Below, piece after piece: positions 1 through 14,551 of a stretch of 17,777 nucleotides of DNA (position 1 is its first letter; each line of letters starts with the position of its first letter). Position numbers and translations under genes: made by a program. Below the pieces are notes generated by a model. That model was not told where the DNA came from and made no database searches. It worked only from the letters and a program-made list of their open reading frames with translations. This DNA is from a virus: the UHGV virus genome UHGV-1442331; one strand, 5' to 3'.

Positions 1-49
1 ATCTACACTTCTAGCTTCGTCGGCAGCGTCAGATGTGTATAAGAGACAG
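1..49. other. Illumina Nextera adapter (P5 tail atctacac, 8-nt index ttctagct, read-1 transposase sequence tcgtcggcagcgtcagatgtgtataagagacag); not biological
   Basis: Exact match, recalled from memory, to the Nextera read-1 adapter at 17-49, preceded by the P5 tail and an 8-nt index-like block. Confidence 0.9.
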
Positions 50-510
50 CTTCTAACGTTGTGTATGGTAAGAAAACTGGTAACACCCCAGACGGTCGTC
101 GTGCTGGCGCGCCGTTCGGACCGGGTGCTAACCCGATGCACGGTCGTGACCAGAAAGGTGCTGTAGCGTCTCTGACTTCCGTTGCTAAACTGCCGTTTGC
201 TTACGCTAAAGATGGTATCTCCTACACCTTCTCTATCGTTCCGAACGCACTGGGTAAAGACGACGAAGTTCGTAAGACCAACCTGGCTGGTCTGATGGAT
301 GGTTACTTCCACCACGAAGCATCCATCGAAGGTGGTCAGCACCTGAACGTTAACGTGATGAACCGTGAAATGCTGCTCGACGCGATGGAAAACCCGGAAA
401 AATATCCGCAGCTGACCATCCGTGTATCTGGCTACGCAGTACGTTTCAACTCGCTGACTAAAGAACAGCAGCAGGACGTTATTACTCGTACCTTCACTCA
501 ATCTATGTAA
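50..510 (+). CDS. pflB: Pyruvate formate-lyase (formate C-acetyltransferase) PflB, C-terminal part; 5' end lies outside the window (reading frame starts at 52)
   Basis: Translation ...[37 protein letters not shown]...[31 protein letters not shown] matches the PflB C-terminus including the glycyl-radical motif RVSGYAV. The tracked ORF begins at a GTG inside the true gene. Confidence 0.9.
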
Positions 511-552
511 TTAGATTTGACTGAAATCGTACAGTAAAAAGCGTACAATAAA

Positions 553-578
553 GGCTCCACGAAAGTGGGGCCTTTTTT
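553..578 (+). terminator. Rho-independent terminator downstream of pflB
   Basis: Hairpin ggctccac-gaaa-gtggggcc (one G-U pair) followed by a tttttt run, about 45 nt after the pflB stop. Confidence 0.6.
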
Positions 579-700
579 AGCACGAGAGCCTTTTTTGTCA
601 GCTATCTATACTTTAAGGTGACTGCCAAAACAGACTCGACGTAGCCTTCGAGCTGCGCACCAACACGGCCTCAGATGGGCCACATCTGGAGAAACACCGC

Positions 701-727
701 AATGTCAGTTATTGGTGACATTTTTTG
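701..727 (+). pseudogene. pflA: 5' remnant of pflA (PFL activating enzyme): first 5 codons only, then the sequence diverges into prophage DNA
   Basis: atgtcagttattggt encodes MSVIG, the PflA N-terminus, at the expected ~190-bp spacing after pflB. The next codons read GDIF-stop instead of RIHSFE. Confidence 0.5.
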
Positions 728-791
728 ATATCTAATCACATGAAATAAAAGGATTTATTTCTGGTCACGTCCACACATTGACCACATCGAC

Positions 792-816
792 AAAAAAAGC
801 CCCTCGACTGAGGGGC
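792..816 (-). terminator. Rho-independent terminator downstream of ogr
   Basis: On the minus strand: GC-rich hairpin (gcccctc / gaggggc, 4-nt loop) followed by a T7 run, about 14 nt after the ogr stop. Confidence 0.6.
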
Positions 817-829
817 TTCCTGTTTCTAA

Positions 830-1048
830 TTACATCCACATAATTTGCTGCCCTGACGGCAACGGGTGCGGTCTTACGGCGTGGACTTCTCCCGGCTTCA
901 CGATGTATCGCTGTACCGACTCATAAGTGATGAACGTGGCGCTGCAATTCACGTTCTGGCACTGATGATAACGCTCTTTTGTCGTGTCAGTGATATAGCG
1001 ACTTGTACGCGCATGTGCGGCATGCTGGCATAAAGGACAATGAAACAT
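830..1048 (-). CDS. ogr: Ogr, zinc-finger late-gene transcriptional activator (72 aa)
   Basis: MFHCPLCQHAAHARTSRYITDTTKERYHQCQNVNCSATFITYESVQRYIVKPGEVHAVRPHPLPSGQQIMWM matches P2 Ogr with its C-x2-C...C-x4-C zinc motif. Start taken at the internal Met preceded by a gaggtg SD, not at the track start 1111. Confidence 0.9.
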   Translation of the reverse strand: MFHCPLCQHAAHARTSRYITDTTKERYHQCQNVNCSATFITYESVQRYIVKPGEVHAVRPHPLPSGQQIMWM

Positions 1049-1129: not shown

Positions 1130-2293
1130 TCACTCATCATCTTCTGTTTCGTACTCCACATCAGAAAGCCTGACCTCAAGCTCTAAGGACGTCGTGAAGC
1201 CGCTATTATTCAGAAAATGTGTCACCTTAGTGATTGTCCAGTCCTGCTCGTCTATGACGCGCTTAAAACCTGACACTTTGACCGGCGTTTCCGTGTAAAT
1301 ATCTGCCCGACCGGTAGCCAGGCTGATGGAGAACTCCGCAACGCCCCGTTGCAGTTTATCCCACTTCGCCTGAGCGGCGCGCATGGCCTGCGCTTTCGTG
1401 GCATATACCGTGGTCAGGGCAAAAACGTTGTCAGCCTCACCGGCCATGTATTCACCTTCACGCGCTTCCGGTACTTTAGGCGCTTTCTTCTGCCTGACCG
1501 GTTTCGCTTTCGGGTGCTCCAGTGCGCGCAGGTGTTTCTCTTTCTTTTTGCGTTTCAGTTTTACCTTCTGCTTTTGCGGCTTCGGGTCTTTGGTGTGTAA
1601 CCACTTTGCCGTTACGCCTGTGTAGGCTCCGCGGTCAGCAATCGCAAAATGATGACGGTCGCCGTCGCTGCGGGTGATGGTAATCTGCGGGATTTTTTTA
1701 CCGCTGGCCGTCACCCCCTGCCCCGCTTTGAGAAACAACAATTTTCCCATTTTTACCGACACCTCACCGCCGTTGCGTTCAGCAAGGCGGGTCAGGAATT
1801 TTGCATCAGACTCCTGCGACTGGTCGATGTGCGGGATTTTAATTCCGGCCAGTGACGGCGCGACACTGGCTTCCAGCCTGTTACGGGAGGCTATCACCTC
1901 AACAATCGCACCGAGCGTGGTGTCATGCCAGGAGCCTTCACGGCGGGAATTGAGCGTCCCGCGAAAATCTGCACTCCGGGCGCGGATGGTAACCACATCC
2001 GGCGCGCCCCGGTGTTCAACCTCATCAACGGTAAATTTCCCTTTGCATACCAGGGCAAAACCTTTCCAGCCGATATACACCGTCAGGACAGCGCCACGAA
2101 CCGGCAGCCCGACCTGCCCGTCGGCATCGTTCAGTTCAATATCAAGCTGGTCAGCCTCAAAGCCCCGGTTATCCGTCAGAGTCATGCTCATTAGACGGTC
2201 GCTGATATTGCCGGTAATATCCCTGCTGTCGAGCATCAGCATGTAATCCGGCGTCAGCGTACTGCCTGCATCAAATGTCAGTGCATCCAGCAT
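1130..2293 (-). CDS. D: Tail protein D (P2 gpD, 387 aa)
   Basis: 387-aa ORF matching P2 gpD in sequence and length, in the syntenic position between U and ogr. Confidence 0.9.
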   Translation of the reverse strand: MLDALTFDAGSTLTPDYMLMLDSRDITGNISDRLMSMTLTDNRGFEADQLDIELNDADGQVGLPVRGAVLTVYIGWKGFALVCKGKFTVDEVEHRGAPDVVTIRARSADFRGTLNSRREGSWHDTTLGAIVEVIASRNRLEASVAPSLAGIKIPHIDQSQESDAKFLTRLAERNGGEVSVKMGKLLFLKAGQGVTASGKKIPQITITRSDGDRHHFAIADRGAYTGVTAKWLHTKDPKPQKQKVKLKRKKKEKHLRALEHPKAKPVRQKKAPKVPEAREGEYMAGEADNVFALTTVYATKAQAMRAAQAKWDKLQRGVAEFSISLATGRADIYTETPVKVSGFKRVIDEQDWTITKVTHFLNNSGFTTSLELEVRLSDVEYETEDDE

Positions 2294-7754: not shown

Positions 7755-8525
7755 ATGTATAAAGAACTTATAGAACAGAGACTGAATGAGGCAAAAGCCG
7801 CCAGAGCTGCGCTGAGCAAGACTAATGGTGTAATTGTCGAAAAAACACATAACCCTGACCGCGGACTGTATCTCGTTAATTATGCCAATTTACTTATGAA
7901 CAGGCAGATAGACATCTTCGATGATGCGCTTCTCCTCCTCGAAAACGAACGATACCAAAGCGCTTGTATTGTTAGCCGAGGAATGATTGAAACTCATGCC
8001 TTCTCACGACTCTTAAACAAGAAAGTAGAGAAAATTTTGACTACCCAAAATGGCCACGCAAGTGTAGATAACGCTATCGAAGTTATATTGAACTTTACGA
8101 ATAGTTCTCGATTTAAAAAGTCAGAGCAAGAAAAGATTCAGAAAGGAGTATTTGACCCGAACGACTACATGTTTACTGAGGAGGCTAAATATCGTTTTGA
8201 AAACCTACTTGCTGTCAGTATGCATGTGATGACTGCTTTACGCGAACTCTATAAAGATGAGATGAAGCAGACTAATCAGATGGAAAGTGATTTTGAACTG
8301 ACTTATGACATACTTAGCGAATATGTTCATCCTTCACAAACGAGCATCTACCACTACTACACACCTGAAACCCACTTAGTTCCTACTTCAGTTGGTAATA
8401 TTCATGCTTATGTGCATGCTCAGCTACAATGTGTGAGAGCGCTACTTTTCATATTAGAAGCAAAGAGTCAACATTATTGGTCTACACAGTTAGCAAATGA
8501 GATGACCAAACGAGCTAAAGAGTAA
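7755..8525 (+). CDS. Hypothetical 256-aa soluble protein in the G-FI accessory slot (P2 Z/fun position); candidate phage-exclusion or defence gene
   Basis: ATG preceded by an aagga SD with 8-nt spacing. Opposite strand to every flanking late gene. Hand-counted GC about 33-47% in three 60-nt blocks, against a clearly GC-richer backbone. No TM segments; no domain recognised. Confidence 0.7.
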   Translation: MYKELIEQRLNEAKAARAALSKTNGVIVEKTHNPDRGLYLVNYANLLMNRQIDIFDDALLLLENERYQSACIVSRGMIETHAFSRLLNKKVEKILTTQNGHASVDNAIEVILNFTNSSRFKKSEQEKIQKGVFDPNDYMFTEEAKYRFENLLAVSMHVMTALRELYKDEMKQTNQMESDFELTYDILSEYVHPSQTSIYHYYTPETHLVPTSVGNIHAYVHAQLQCVRALLFILEAKSQHYWSTQLANEMTKRAKE

Positions 8526-13765: not shown

Positions 13766-14551
13766 ATGGTCAGCTATAATGTGACTAATGTGTGGGGGCT
13801 AATCGTTTTTTTCCTTTGTAGCTTTGCAGTATTAGCATTTTTTAGCTTTGGTAAAAGTAACCTTATGAGGCTTATTGCACATTATTTCAATTTTGGATAT
13901 TCAGACAAAAAATTAAAAAGACTTGACCGCGAGTGGCGCGACATTCAACTATTTAAAATAATTAACGGAATCAATGTATCAGGCATTGAAAATGTGAGAA
14001 TGATACAGCAGGGACTGATTGATGGAAAACTAAAAACATCGTATTTTTTCCTTACTCGCATCTGGGGTGACATAACAAAACCACCACACATAATTAAAAC
14101 AATAATTGTAATTCTGGCCAGTATTTTTTACATTCTCCTCGCATGTTATATACACAACAAACAATCCGCTATAGTAAGAGATGCCATAGGCATACCATAT
14201 AAAAATATGATGTACTATGTTTATAGTGACAAAGTTCTTTTATCCTTCAACAATAAAACAGTTGAATTCAATAAAACTTATAGCCTTGCCGATTGCAAGA
14301 GACTGCAAAACGTATTTATAAAAGACACACTTCCTGAGATCGCCTGCAATAAGCTCTTACAGCTAAACGAGGAGGACTCCGAATGGTTAAGCCAGGAGAT
14401 TAAAGATAATAACAGTCACAAAAAAGCATTATTAATACTATCCCTCGTCTATTTCACTTCAGGTCTGGTTATATTCCTGTCATATACAAAATTCTTTTAC
14501 GCCAATAAGAAGGTTTTAGAATACAAAGCATCAAATAAAAATCACTCATAA
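13766..14551 (+). CDS. Hypothetical 261-aa integral membrane protein (three predicted TM helices) in the S-V accessory slot (P2 orf30 position); candidate lysogenic-conversion, exclusion or defence gene
   Basis: ATG preceded by a strong aaggaga SD with 5-nt spacing. Opposite strand to the late genes. Hand-counted GC about 23-38% in three 60-nt blocks versus about 65% in a block of V. Hydrophobic stretches VWGLIVFFLCSFAVLAFFSF, IIKTIIVILASIFYILLACYI and ALLILSLVYFTSGLVIFLSY. Confidence 0.75.
   Translation: MVSYNVTNVWGLIVFFLCSFAVLAFFSFGKSNLMRLIAHYFNFGYSDKKLKRLDREWRDIQLFKIINGINVSGIENVRMIQQGLIDGKLKTSYFFLTRIWGDITKPPHIIKTIIVILASIFYILLACYIHNKQSAIVRDAIGIPYKNMMYYVYSDKVLLSFNNKTVEFNKTYSLADCKRLQNVFIKDTLPEIACNKLLQLNEEDSEWLSQEIKDNNSHKKALLILSLVYFTSGLVIFLSYTKFFYANKKVLEYKASNKNHS

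What the first reader, a model, noticed from the sequence alone, without database searches (positions are those of the whole stretch)
690..830. Prophage-host junction inside the first codons of pflA
Seen: pflB 3' end, its terminator, and a pflA start (MSVIG) are intact, but after about 716 the sequence stops matching pflA and reaches the ogr terminator and ogr within ~115 bp. Established: in P2, ogr lies next to attP, so the ogr end is a prophage boundary. Inference: either this P2-like phage integrates at the 5' end of pflA (unusual; it would separate pflA from its promoter and start unless the attachment core rebuilds them at the other prophage end), or the join is an assembly chimera. The P2 att core as I remember it is not present here, but I am not certain of that sequence.
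Basis: partly seen in the sequence, partly recalled or inferred. Interest (0 to 1): 0.55.

Follow-up and report, generated by a model that had tools for sequence, protein, structure and literature searches.

The report
P2-like prophage end inside pflA start
This is the genuine left end of a P2-like prophage that inserts into the first five codons of the E. coli gene pflA, and the phage brings its own start codon plus a 20-codon leader at its other end, so the gene stays open; this is a recurrent and tidy arrangement, not an assembly error.

Summary
Host sequence (pflB 3' end, terminator, pflA promoter region, ATG TCA GTT ATT GGT) runs to window base 716. Phage DNA follows, and ogr stops at 830. 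The same junction occurs in 393 of 5426 complete E. coli genomes, and the matching int-side junction in 405, so it is not a chimera.

Comparing empty site, free phage, left junction and right junction gives a 13-bp core, GTCAGTTATTGGT (window 704-716). It begins at the G of the pflA ATG. The integrase is 53% identical to P2 Int. P2's 27-bp core is absent, but the ogr-side arm is nearly identical to P2's annotated Int arm site and to part of its IHF site.

The core does not rebuild the pflA start; ATG becomes AAG at the int end. Instead the phage supplies an in-frame ATG 20 codons upstream, 31 bp after the int stop, giving a 265-aa PflA.

This design recurs with 76-100% identical integrases in Klebsiella, E. 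albertii, Scandinavium, Pseudescherichia, Rahnella, Serratia, Dickeya and Pectobacterium (the ECA29-type integrase). It also survives without a prophage in Salmonella (pflB-sopD2-int remnant-leader-pflA) and in other lineages.

Expression and function of the fusion are inferred, not shown. I rate it a new member of a known kind, of moderate interest.

The parts
1..49 (.). Untrimmed Illumina adapter at the contig end: P5 tail ATCTACAC, 8-base i5 index TTCTAGCT, then Nextera read-1 sequence TCGTCGGCAGCGTCAGATGTGTATAAGAGACAG. It is not genomic sequence.
   Evidence: Read. Identification rests on my own knowledge of Illumina/Nextera adapter sequences. E. coli pflB identity begins at about base 50.
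50..510 (+). 3' end of pflB (formate C-acetyltransferase), with its stop codon TAA at 508-510
   Evidence: ORF 61-510. The same sequence is annotated as pflB in NZ_CP051001, BL21 and NZ_AP028880.
552..579 (+). pflB terminator hairpin (aggctccac gaaa gtggggcct) followed by a T-run
   Evidence: Read by eye and identical in the empty site. The simple terminator scan did not flag it, so this is sequence reading plus inference.
580..701 (+). Host pflB-pflA intergenic region, which holds the native pflA promoter region and Shine-Dalgarno (GGAG 688-691). The prophage now separates it from the pflA body.
   Evidence: Identical to the BL21 empty site up to base 716. That pflA has its own promoter here is established knowledge, not tested.
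702..728 (+). Stub ORF left at attL: the native pflA ATG and codons 2-5 joined to phage DNA, MSVIGDIF then stop
   Evidence: Direct reading; the same sequence occurs at attL in NZ_CP051001.
704..716 (.). Attachment-site core GTCAGTTATTGGT, 13 bp identical in attB, attP, attL and attR. In attP it is flanked by the inverted pentamers ACCAA and TTGGT.
   Evidence: Four-way comparison: attB, attP, attL, attR, aligned.
717..740 (.). Phage arm segment specific to the pflA-type attP; it has no counterpart in P2
   Evidence: Present in the free phage P24A7b. P2-like phages with a different attP/int match the window only from about 733 onward. Homology to P2 itself starts at 741.
741..759 (.). Segment identical to the ogr-proximal half of the IHF site annotated in P2 attP
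   Evidence: P2 record annotation mapped onto the window by pairwise alignment.
763..790 (.). Sequence identical to P2's annotated Int arm-type binding site (P arm): GGTCACGTCCACACATTGACCACATCGA
797..818 (.). ogr / F-operon terminator hairpin AAGCCCCTCGACTGAGGGGCTT. It reads as a terminator for ogr on the minus strand and also scores as terminator-like on the plus strand, facing the orphaned pflA promoter.
   Evidence: The plus-strand hit is. It matches the 'rho-independent terminator for ogr transcript and F operon' annotated in P2.
830..1048 (-). ogr, the late-gene activator (72 aa)
   Evidence: Pfam Ogr_Delta E=1.1e-21. Annotated as ogrK in E. coli genomes. About 98% identical to P2-like phage ogr regions.
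1130..2293 (-). gpD-like late control/tail protein, the first large prophage gene after ogr. P2-like tail and lysis genes continue to the end of the window.
   Evidence: ORF list. The syntenic annotation 'phage late control D family protein' occurs.

Best explanation
Window 704-716 is the core of the left attachment site of a P2-like (Peduovirus) prophage. Its tyrosine integrase recognises a 13-bp target, GTCAGTTATTGGT, lying on codons 1-5 of pflA. Recombination between attP (between int and ogr on the phage) and this attB puts ogr next to pflB, which is the junction seen in the window. It puts C-int next to the body of pflA at the far end, which lies outside the window. The native pflA promoter, ribosome-binding site and ATG stay behind at the left junction. 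There they head an 8-codon stub that ends before the ogr terminator. At the right junction the pflA ATG is lost (AAG). The phage arm supplies a substitute: an ATG 31 bp after the int stop codon and 19 more codons in frame with pflA codon 2. Lysogens would therefore make a 265-aa PflA with a phage-encoded 20-residue N-terminal leader. No terminator is predicted between the C-int operon and the leader. Transcription is therefore most likely read-through from the lysogenic promoter, or from an unidentified promoter in the 3' end of int. Shown here: the junctions, the core, their recurrence, the open reading frame and its conservation. Inferred: that the leader ATG is used, that the fusion protein is active, and where its transcript starts.
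For: 1. Recurrence. attL is found in 393 and attR in 405 of 5426 complete E. coli genomes. Every genome has the pflB-pflA sequence.
2. Four-way att comparison with a 13-bp common core.
3. Free phage genomes carry the attP. These include P24A7b, P24E6b, 11W, 12W, D8, S164, vB_YpM_46 and pro483/pro147, 20 records with >=99% identical Int.
4. The Int has Int_N and Phage_integrase domains and is 53% identical to P2 Int. The ogr-side arm equals P2's annotated Int arm site and half of its IHF site. A GTCCATAA x2 direct repeat at the int stop corresponds in position to P2's P' arm site.
5. Complete examples of pflB-ogr...C-int-pflA (798 bp, 265 aa) exist in NZ_CP051001 and NZ_AP028880.
6. The leader design is conserved. 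Integrases 76-100% identical sit directly upstream of a leader-pflA ORF in E. albertii, three Scandinavium species, Pseudescherichia vulneris, Rahnella, Pectobacterium atrosepticum (integrase identical to that of SCRI1043), Dickeya dianthicola and Serratia marcescens. Klebsiella pneumoniae has a 265-aa PflA with the E. coli-type leader on 336 contigs.
7. Across 12 diverged leader sequences there are 0 stop triplets in the leader frame, against 30 and 33 in the other two frames. One leader has 18 codons rather than 20 and is still in frame.
8. Fossils lacking a prophage keep the leader. In Salmonella the order is pflB-sopD2-int remnant-leader-pflA in two lineages whose pflA bodies are 92% identical. 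In L097/L098 the order is pflB, then 431 bp including int codons 269-331, then leader-pflA. L099/L100 and L092 also keep it.
9. No plus-strand terminator is predicted between C/int and the leader.
Against: There are no expression data. The Shine-Dalgarno before the leader ATG is weak (GAAG/AGAG, read by eye). No convincing or conserved sigma-70 promoter was found upstream.
Leader codons show no third-position excess, so the peptide sequence itself is barely constrained. Part of the conservation (codons 1-4, 7 and 11) could reflect DNA-binding sites of Int or Cox rather than coding.
The leaders are not phylogenetically independent, so the 0/30/33 stop count overstates significance. Per-sequence shuffles give only P = 0.13-0.27 each.
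A review states that the related prophage ECA29 disrupts pflA (PMC13492144).
The window does not contain the int end, so the reciprocal junction in this particular genome was not seen.
Confidence: 0.85

Rival explanations
1. Assembly chimera: the assembler wrongly joined a pflB-containing fragment and a P2-like phage fragment, perhaps helped by the poor read trimming seen at the contig end.
For: Window bases 1-49 are untrimmed Illumina/Nextera adapter, so the assembly input was not clean. The int end of the prophage is not in the window.
Against: The same junction, base for base, is present in 393 complete E. coli genomes, many from hybrid or long-read assemblies. The reciprocal junction is present in 405. 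The join falls exactly at a 13-bp sequence shared by free-phage attP and the host site, as expected for site-specific recombination and not for a random misjoin.
Confidence: 0.02
2. True integration, but it inactivates pflA. The 265-aa ORF would be an annotation artefact, lysogens would be PflA-deficient, and pflA would be restored only on excision. This would be gene disruption or 'active lysogeny', as stated for ECA29.
For: The native promoter, ribosome-binding site and ATG are removed from the gene body. The Shine-Dalgarno before the leader ATG is weak and no clear promoter was predicted. The review PMC13492144 lists ECA29 as disrupting pflA.
Against: The frame from the phage ATG into pflA is open in every lineage examined. 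This includes the ECA29-type locus (265 aa) and an 18-codon variant. Stop triplets by frame are 0/30/33. Degraded prophages and prophage-free fossils in Salmonella and other genera still keep the leader fused to an intact full-length pflA. That is hard to explain if the fusion were dead, because excision can no longer restore the gene there. The next in-frame Met in PflA lies inside the CX3CX2C cluster motif, so no shorter functional start is available (sequence reading).
Confidence: 0.1
3. The element at this site in the source genome is a decayed, immobile remnant rather than an active prophage, so the junction is a fossil rather than a working attL.
For: Two closed genomes inspected carry deleted versions. 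NZ_CP051001 has an IS30 insertion and lacks most late genes. NZ_AP028880 lacks capsid genes and has a frameshifted sheath gene.
Against: Over its 17 kb the window shows an uninterrupted series of P2-like late ORFs of normal length, from D down through the tail, baseplate and lysis genes. Nearly identical att regions occur in phages isolated as virions. The part of the prophage outside the window could not be inspected, so this question stays open. It does not change what the junction is.
Confidence: 0.25

Closest known systems
Bacteriophage P2 Int/attP system (Peduovirus P2; attP between ogr and int; preferred host site locI)
   Same: The gene order ogr-terminator-arm site-IHF site-core-Cox region-int is the same. 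Window 741-850 is almost identical to P2, including its annotated Int P-arm site. The integrase has the same domains, and its first 60 residues, which by analogy bind the arm sites, are highly similar to P2 Int.
   Different: The integrase is only 53% identical overall. P2's 27-bp core is absent and is replaced by a 13-bp core. The target lies inside the start of a protein-coding gene. The int-side arm encodes a leader ORF that fuses to the host gene.
Prophage ECA29 of Pectobacterium atrosepticum SCRI1043, a P2-like prophage reported at pflA
   Same: The SCRI1043 integrase (P0259) is 78% identical to the Rahnella member of this integrase group. It sits 40 bp upstream of pflA with the same layout: cox, C, int, then a 20-codon leader fused at AAG TCA GTA ATC GGT CGC.
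   Different: A review describes ECA29 as disrupting pflA (PMC13492144); the primary paper was not available. The sequence shows a re-formed 265-aa ORF rather than a truncated gene. The leader peptide is diverged (MNNSNTCFSTEKPDIAEAVK).
Gene-end-restoring integration, in which a phage inserts in a gene and carries a copy of the displaced end. Examples recalled from my own knowledge: tRNA genes, and icd for phage 21 and e14.
   Same: A core lies inside a gene, and phage DNA next to the core keeps the gene open after insertion.
   Different: In those cases the 3' end is replaced by a near-homologous copy. Here the 5' end is replaced, and the phage segment is not homologous to the displaced promoter, ribosome-binding site or ATG. 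It adds 20 new residues.
Phage HK022 at torS, where the host gene is driven by a phage promoter after integration (cited in review PMC13492144)
   Same: Integration upstream of or at the 5' end of a host gene replaces the native promoter with phage-derived control of an anaerobic-metabolism gene.
   Different: For HK022 a promoter replacement has been reported experimentally. Here transcription from the phage is only inferred, and the coding sequence is also altered.
The Salmonella sopD2 islet between pflB and pflA
   Same: It contains a degraded 3' end of the same integrase type, the arm-type GTCCAT motif, and the same 20-codon leader fused to pflA codon 2 with no ATG at the E. coli start position.
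   Different: No prophage remains. An effector gene of the SopD family lies between pflB and the int remnant. The arrangement is shared by two diverged Salmonella lineages, so it appears fixed.

Membership tests
Tyrosine-integrase (lambda/P2-type) site-specific prophage attachment site | A short identical core is present in the empty host site, in the free phage, and at both prophage ends | tested here: met
   GTCAGTTATTGGT is present in attB, attP, attL and attR, aligned.
Tyrosine-integrase (lambda/P2-type) site-specific prophage attachment site | A tyrosine recombinase gene lies adjacent to attP and at one prophage end | tested here: met
   A 331-aa Int with PF24624 and PF00589 domains lies next to attP in P24A7b and next to pflA in lysogens. 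It is not within this window.
Tyrosine-integrase (lambda/P2-type) site-specific prophage attachment site | Recombination between attP and attB is catalysed by the Int, shown experimentally | not testable with these tools
   Support is indirect only: the same phage type occurs as free virion genomes and as prophages at this site.
Phage P2 attP (P2 Int specificity, locI-type core) | The 27-bp P2 core AAAAAATAAGCCCGTGTAAGGGAGATT | tested here: not met
   No match in the window with <=3 mismatches. The core region differs in the alignment.
Phage P2 attP (P2 Int specificity, locI-type core) | P2-type arm sites and IHF site on the ogr side | tested here: met
   Window 763-790 is identical to P2's annotated Int P-arm site, and 741-759 to half of the IHF site.
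Phage P2 attP (P2 Int specificity, locI-type core) | The integrase is P2 Int or a near-identical protein | tested here: not met
   53% identity over 326 residues. Phage records with this Int are either >=99% or <=60% identical, which marks a discrete type.
Gene-end-restoring integration | The host ORF remains open and full length across the junction | tested here: met
   A 265-aa ORF with no stop occurs in E. coli, E. albertii, Scandinavium, Pseudescherichia, Rahnella, Pectobacterium and Dickeya, and a 263-aa ORF in Serratia. RefSeq annotates it as pflA.
Gene-end-restoring integration | The phage-borne segment is a homologous copy of the displaced gene end | tested here: not met
   Upstream of the core, attP and attB are unrelated, and the start codon is not reproduced: AAG in the E. 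coli, Scandinavium, Dickeya, Pectobacterium and Serratia types. Only the Rahnella type keeps ATG.
Gene-end-restoring integration | The restored gene is expressed and functional in the lysogen | not testable with these tools
   Support is indirect: the frame is maintained and the leader is retained in prophage-free fossils.
Assembly chimera | The junction is unique to this assembly and has no recombination signature | tested here: not met
   393 closed genomes share it, and the break coincides with the att core.

The most novel reading that the evidence does not exclude
Lysogeny by this phage group rewires pflA rather than merely sparing it. PflA is the activase needed for pyruvate formate-lyase and other glycyl-radical enzymes. 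In lysogens it would be transcribed from the prophage's lysogenic operon (Pc-C-int read-through, or a promoter inside the int 3' end) and translated from a phage leader. Anaerobic formate metabolism would then be coupled to prophage state. The rewiring would have been fixed more than once after prophage decay, including in Salmonella, where the fossil junction sits beside the effector gene sopD2. The near-invariant Cys at leader position 7 could then have a role of its own.
Probability: 0.3. Interest if true: 0.6.

Novelty: new member of a known kind. Interest (0 to 1): 0.42.

Why it matters
The finding settles what the junction is and gives a base-precise attB/attP for a common P2-like integrase type. 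That type occupies about 7% of complete E. coli genomes and also occurs in Klebsiella and at least eight other enterobacterial genera.

It shows that insertion into the very start of a metabolic gene need not destroy it, because the phage carries a substitute translation start. That bears on how prophage "gene disruptions" are scored in genome surveys. The ECA29/pflA case appears to be mis-scored in this way.

It also explains why PflA is annotated as 265 aa rather than 246 aa in lysogens and in the Salmonella genomes inspected, and it dates the sopD2 islet next to pflA to an old insertion of this phage type.

Finally, it offers a simple natural system for testing how a prophage takes over expression of a host gene.

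Tried and rejected
1. Literature. Eight full-text searches used pflA with P2-like, prophage, integrase, integration site or attB, plus ECA29, pro483, sopD2 with pflA, and STM0971 (one further query failed on a term that was too short). None found a description of the E. coli pflA attachment site or of the leader fusion. Most pflA hits were false matches such as pFLAG or Pflanzen. The primary ECA29 paper and the 2004 paper on P2-like integration sites were not held.
2. IMG/VR scan with an integrase alignment. Most prophage contigs are trimmed exactly at the int stop, so only about 10 of 80 loci gave junction sequence. More distant relatives are not at pflA: the 70% identical one (L087) sits upstream of pyrE, and the 60% identical one (L090) lies next to sequence that is not pflA.
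3. Promoter search upstream of the leader. The tool scan and my own scan of nine aligned upstream regions gave only weak candidates, ending near -179 and -40, that are not consistently conserved. I do not claim a promoter. In the int remnants, a block corresponding to int codons about 275-285 (TTTTATAnTGAATGGAGGTAAnATA) stays conserved even where int is a pseudogene. This is suggestive but unexplained.
4. Codon-position test on the leader. There is no third-position excess, so I dropped the claim that the leader peptide sequence is under purifying selection. I keep only the weaker claim that start, frame and absence of stops are maintained.
5. Short-query protein search. It mostly returned PflA fragments but yielded extra leader variants. 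The apparent 16-residue leader of P0002 proved to be a gene-calling choice; the DNA has the usual 20 codons.
6. PADLOC, PHROGs and Pfam on the two plus-strand cargo ORFs gave no functional assignment.

Full report
**1. What is in the window.**
Bases 1-49 are untrimmed Illumina adapter: the P5 tail, an i5 index and the Nextera read-1 sequence. I identify these from my own knowledge of the adapters; they are read. From about base 50 the sequence is the 3' end of E. coli pflB, with its stop at 508-510. A hairpin and T-run follow at about 552-579, then the pflB-pflA intergenic region. The pflA Shine-Dalgarno GGAG is at 688-691 and ATG TCA GTT ATT GGT at 702-716.

The empty site in BL21 continues CGC ATT CAC TCC. 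The window instead continues GAC ATT TTT TGA, so host identity ends exactly after base 716. The ogr stop lies 114 bp further on. ogr itself is 830-1048 on the minus strand (Ogr_Delta zinc finger, E=1e-21) and is preceded by its terminator hairpin at 797-818. The rest of the window is an unbroken series of P2-like late ORFs on the minus strand.

**2. It is not a chimera.**
Window 560-900 is present at >=80% coverage and about 99% identity in 393 of 5426 complete E. coli genomes. The reciprocal junction (int, a short spacer, pflA) is present in 405. Two closed genomes were inspected. Both show pflB, ogr, late genes, cox, C, int and pflA in that order, with pflA annotated at 798 bp (265 aa) instead of 741 bp. 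Phages sequenced as free genomes match the window from base 700 onward.

**3. The attachment sites.**
- Free phage P24A7b reads ...GCTACCAA GTCAGTTATTGGT GACATTTTTTGA....
- The empty host site reads ...ACCGCAAT GTCAGTTATTGGT CGCATTCAC....
- The left junction has the host left flank and the phage right flank.
- The right junction has the phage left flank and the host right flank.

The common core is therefore GTCAGTTATTGGT, window 704-716 (alignment). It starts at the G of the pflA ATG. In attP it is bracketed by the inverted pentamers ACCAA and TTGGT, a plausible pair of core-type Int sites around an overlap region (sequence reading, inferred).

**4. Relation to P2.**
The integrase of these phages has the Int_N and Phage_integrase domains. 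It is 53% identical to P2 Int, with the N-terminal ~60 residues much more similar than the rest. The P2 record annotates a terminator, an Int arm site, an IHF site, the 27-bp core, a Cox region and a second Int arm site between ogr and int.

Window 741-850 is almost identical to P2. Positions 763-790 equal P2's Int P-arm site and 741-759 equal half of the IHF site. The 27-bp P2 core is absent. At the int stop, the direct repeat GTCCATAA x2, spaced 11 bp, lies where P2 has its TGTCCAC x2 P' arm site.

So this is the P2 attachment architecture with a swapped module of integrase, core and int-side arm. The integrase type is discrete. Twenty phage records have >=99% identity, two have 60%, and the rest have less.

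**5. What happens to pflA.**
At the right junction the sequence is ...ACC AAG TCA GTT ATT GGT CGC..., so the ATG is not rebuilt. The phage arm carries an ATG 31 bp after the int stop, in frame: ATG AGT AAT TTA ACT AAT TGT AAT ACA ACA GAA AAT ACC GCT GCG GCG GGG GCT ACC AAG. This gives MSNLTNCNTTENTAAAGATK fused to SVIGRIHSF... and a 265-aa ORF.

There is no other ATG, GTG or TTG in frame between that ATG and the core. The next Met in PflA lies inside the CX3CX2C iron-sulfur motif (sequence reading). If PflA is made in lysogens, it must therefore start at the phage ATG.

At the left junction, which is the one in the window, the orphaned native promoter, ribosome-binding site and ATG head an 8-codon stub, MSVIGDIF (702-728). 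This runs toward the ogr terminator, which also scores as terminator-like in that direction.

**6. The design is conserved across genera.**
A scan of one genome per species found integrases 76-100% identical in several species. In every case the integrase lies directly upstream of pflA with a 20-codon in-frame leader:
- E. albertii (100%).
- Three Scandinavium species and Pseudescherichia vulneris (79-80%).
- Rahnella ecdela (76%).

A protein search with the Rahnella integrase followed by locus retrieval added three more:
- Pectobacterium atrosepticum. The integrase is identical to that of SCRI1043, the strain reported to carry ECA29.
- Dickeya dianthicola.
- Serratia marcescens.

These have leaders of 20, 20 and 18 codons, all in frame.

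Klebsiella pneumoniae has a 265-aa PflA with the E. coli-type leader on 336 contigs. Fragments from Citrobacter portucalensis and from unnamed sources add further leader variants. In the Rahnella type the native ATG is retained as the last leader codon.

Over 12 diverged leader DNAs, stop triplets number 0 in the leader frame and 30 and 33 in the other two frames. These sequences share ancestry, so the contrast is not a clean probability. Per-sequence shuffles give 0.13-0.27 each. There is no third-position excess. The peptide is therefore loosely constrained apart from codons 1-4, Cys7 and Glu11. What is maintained is the start, the frame and the absence of stops.

**7. Fossils.**
In Salmonella enterica the order is pflB, a SopD-family gene on the opposite strand, a degraded int 3' end, the leader, and pflA. 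AAG CCG stands where E. coli has ATG TCA. Two Salmonella lineages share this arrangement. They are 92% identical in the pflA body, 91% in the sopD gene and 75% in the leader. The arrangement is thus old and apparently fixed.

Contigs L097/L098, from an unnamed enterobacterium, have pflB, then 431 bp containing only int codons 269-331, then leader-pflA. L099/L100 and L092 are similar.

In these genomes excision can no longer restore the native start, yet pflA remains full length behind the phage leader. This is the strongest available argument that the fusion is expressed and works. All the fossils keep at least the last 50-70 codons' worth of int DNA. A block corresponding to int codons about 275-285 stays conserved even where int is a pseudogene. 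That hints at a promoter there, but neither promoter scan gave a convincing, conserved hit.

**8. Mechanism: shown versus inferred.**
- Shown: the junctions, the core, their recurrence, the module relationship to P2, the open fusion ORF and its conservation, and the fossils.
- Inferred from established P2 biology (Pc drives C and int toward attP; the Pc promoter and gene order are annotated): in the lysogen the C-int transcript can run into leader-pflA, since no plus-strand terminator is predicted in between.
- Inferred: the leader ATG is the translation start, and the 20 extra residues are tolerated. In favour, Providencia and related PflA proteins carry unrelated 16-18-residue N-terminal extensions (P0128, P0133).

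**9. Comparison with what is known.**
The closest system is P2 Int/attP, with the same architecture but a different core and target. The closest described case is ECA29 in P. atrosepticum. A review lists it as disrupting pflA (PMC13492144), but the sequence of that integrase's locus shows the same re-formed 265-aa ORF.

Restoring a gene end after insertion is a known strategy, usually at 3' ends and with a homologous copy. Here the 5' end is replaced by a non-homologous leader. Promoter replacement by an integrated phage has been reported for HK022 at torS (same review).

I found no description of the E. coli pflA site or of the leader fusion in the searchable library. Key subscription papers were not available, so prior description cannot be excluded.

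**10. Verdict.**
The junction is a real and common prophage junction, correctly spotted. The interesting part lies at the other prophage end, where a phage-encoded substitute start keeps pflA open, conserved across at least ten genera and fossilised in Salmonella. I rate it a new member of a known kind, of moderate interest.

Noticed in passing
window 1-49: The contig begins with untrimmed Illumina library sequence: ATCTACAC, the i5 index TTCTAGCT, then TCGTCGGCAGCGTCAGATGTGTATAAGAGACAG. Genomic pflB sequence starts at about base 50. This is adapter contamination in the assembly.
   Followed up: partly
L094 1456-3060; L095 1970-3560: In Salmonella enterica a SopD-family effector gene (sopD2 by position) lies between pflB and pflA. 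Beside it are a degraded int 3' end and the same phage leader fused to pflA. Salmonella pflA therefore seems to carry a fixed phage-derived start, and the islet looks like the remains of a pflA-integrating P2-like prophage.
   Followed up: partly
L102 3440-3620 (Pectobacterium atrosepticum, integrase identical to that of SCRI1043): The ECA29-type integrase is followed 40 bp later by an intact 265-aa leader-pflA ORF. This is at odds with the statement in a 2026 review that ECA29 disrupts pflA.
   Followed up: partly
Leader codon 7, e.g. L005 4046-4048; 15 leader variants: Cys at leader position 7 (TGT/TGC) is kept in 14 of 15 otherwise diverged leaders, and codons 1-4 and Glu11 are also conserved. 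It is unexplained whether this reflects a role of the peptide or a DNA-binding site (Cox or Int) in the attP arm.
   Followed up: no
L095 3290-3330, L097 3310-3345, L092, L099 (alignment): In prophage-free fossils the DNA corresponding to int codons about 275-285 (TTTTATAnTGAATGGAGGTAAnATA) stays conserved although int is a pseudogene. It may be a regulatory element for pflA, but promoter scans were inconclusive.
   Followed up: partly
window 7755-8525 (+): A plus-strand ORF of 256 aa sits between the tail sheath gene and the tail-fibre assembly gene, which is the P2 Z/fun cargo position. It has a DUF5677 domain (E=1e-9) and no PADLOC or PHROG hit. The syntenic slot in strain N61 holds a different gene, so this is a variable cargo locus.
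   Followed up: partly
window 13766-14551 (+): A second plus-strand cargo ORF of 261 aa sits between baseplate gene V and the virion morphogenesis genes. It matches phrog_2407 (unknown function, E=1e-148) and has no Pfam or PADLOC hit. It is also present in strain N61.
   Followed up: partly
L087 2487-2810: A 70%-identical relative of the integrase is not at pflA. It sits upstream of a gene starting [23 protein letters not shown] (pyrE-like), which suggests a switch of target site within this integrase clade.
   Followed up: no
L001 29628-30779; L101 6561-7752 and 16594-17501: Prophages at this site in closed E. coli genomes are often decayed: an IS30 insertion and loss of most late genes in NZ_CP051001, and capsid-region deletion with a frameshifted sheath gene in NZ_AP028880. 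Both junctions and the 265-aa pflA are nevertheless retained.
   Followed up: no
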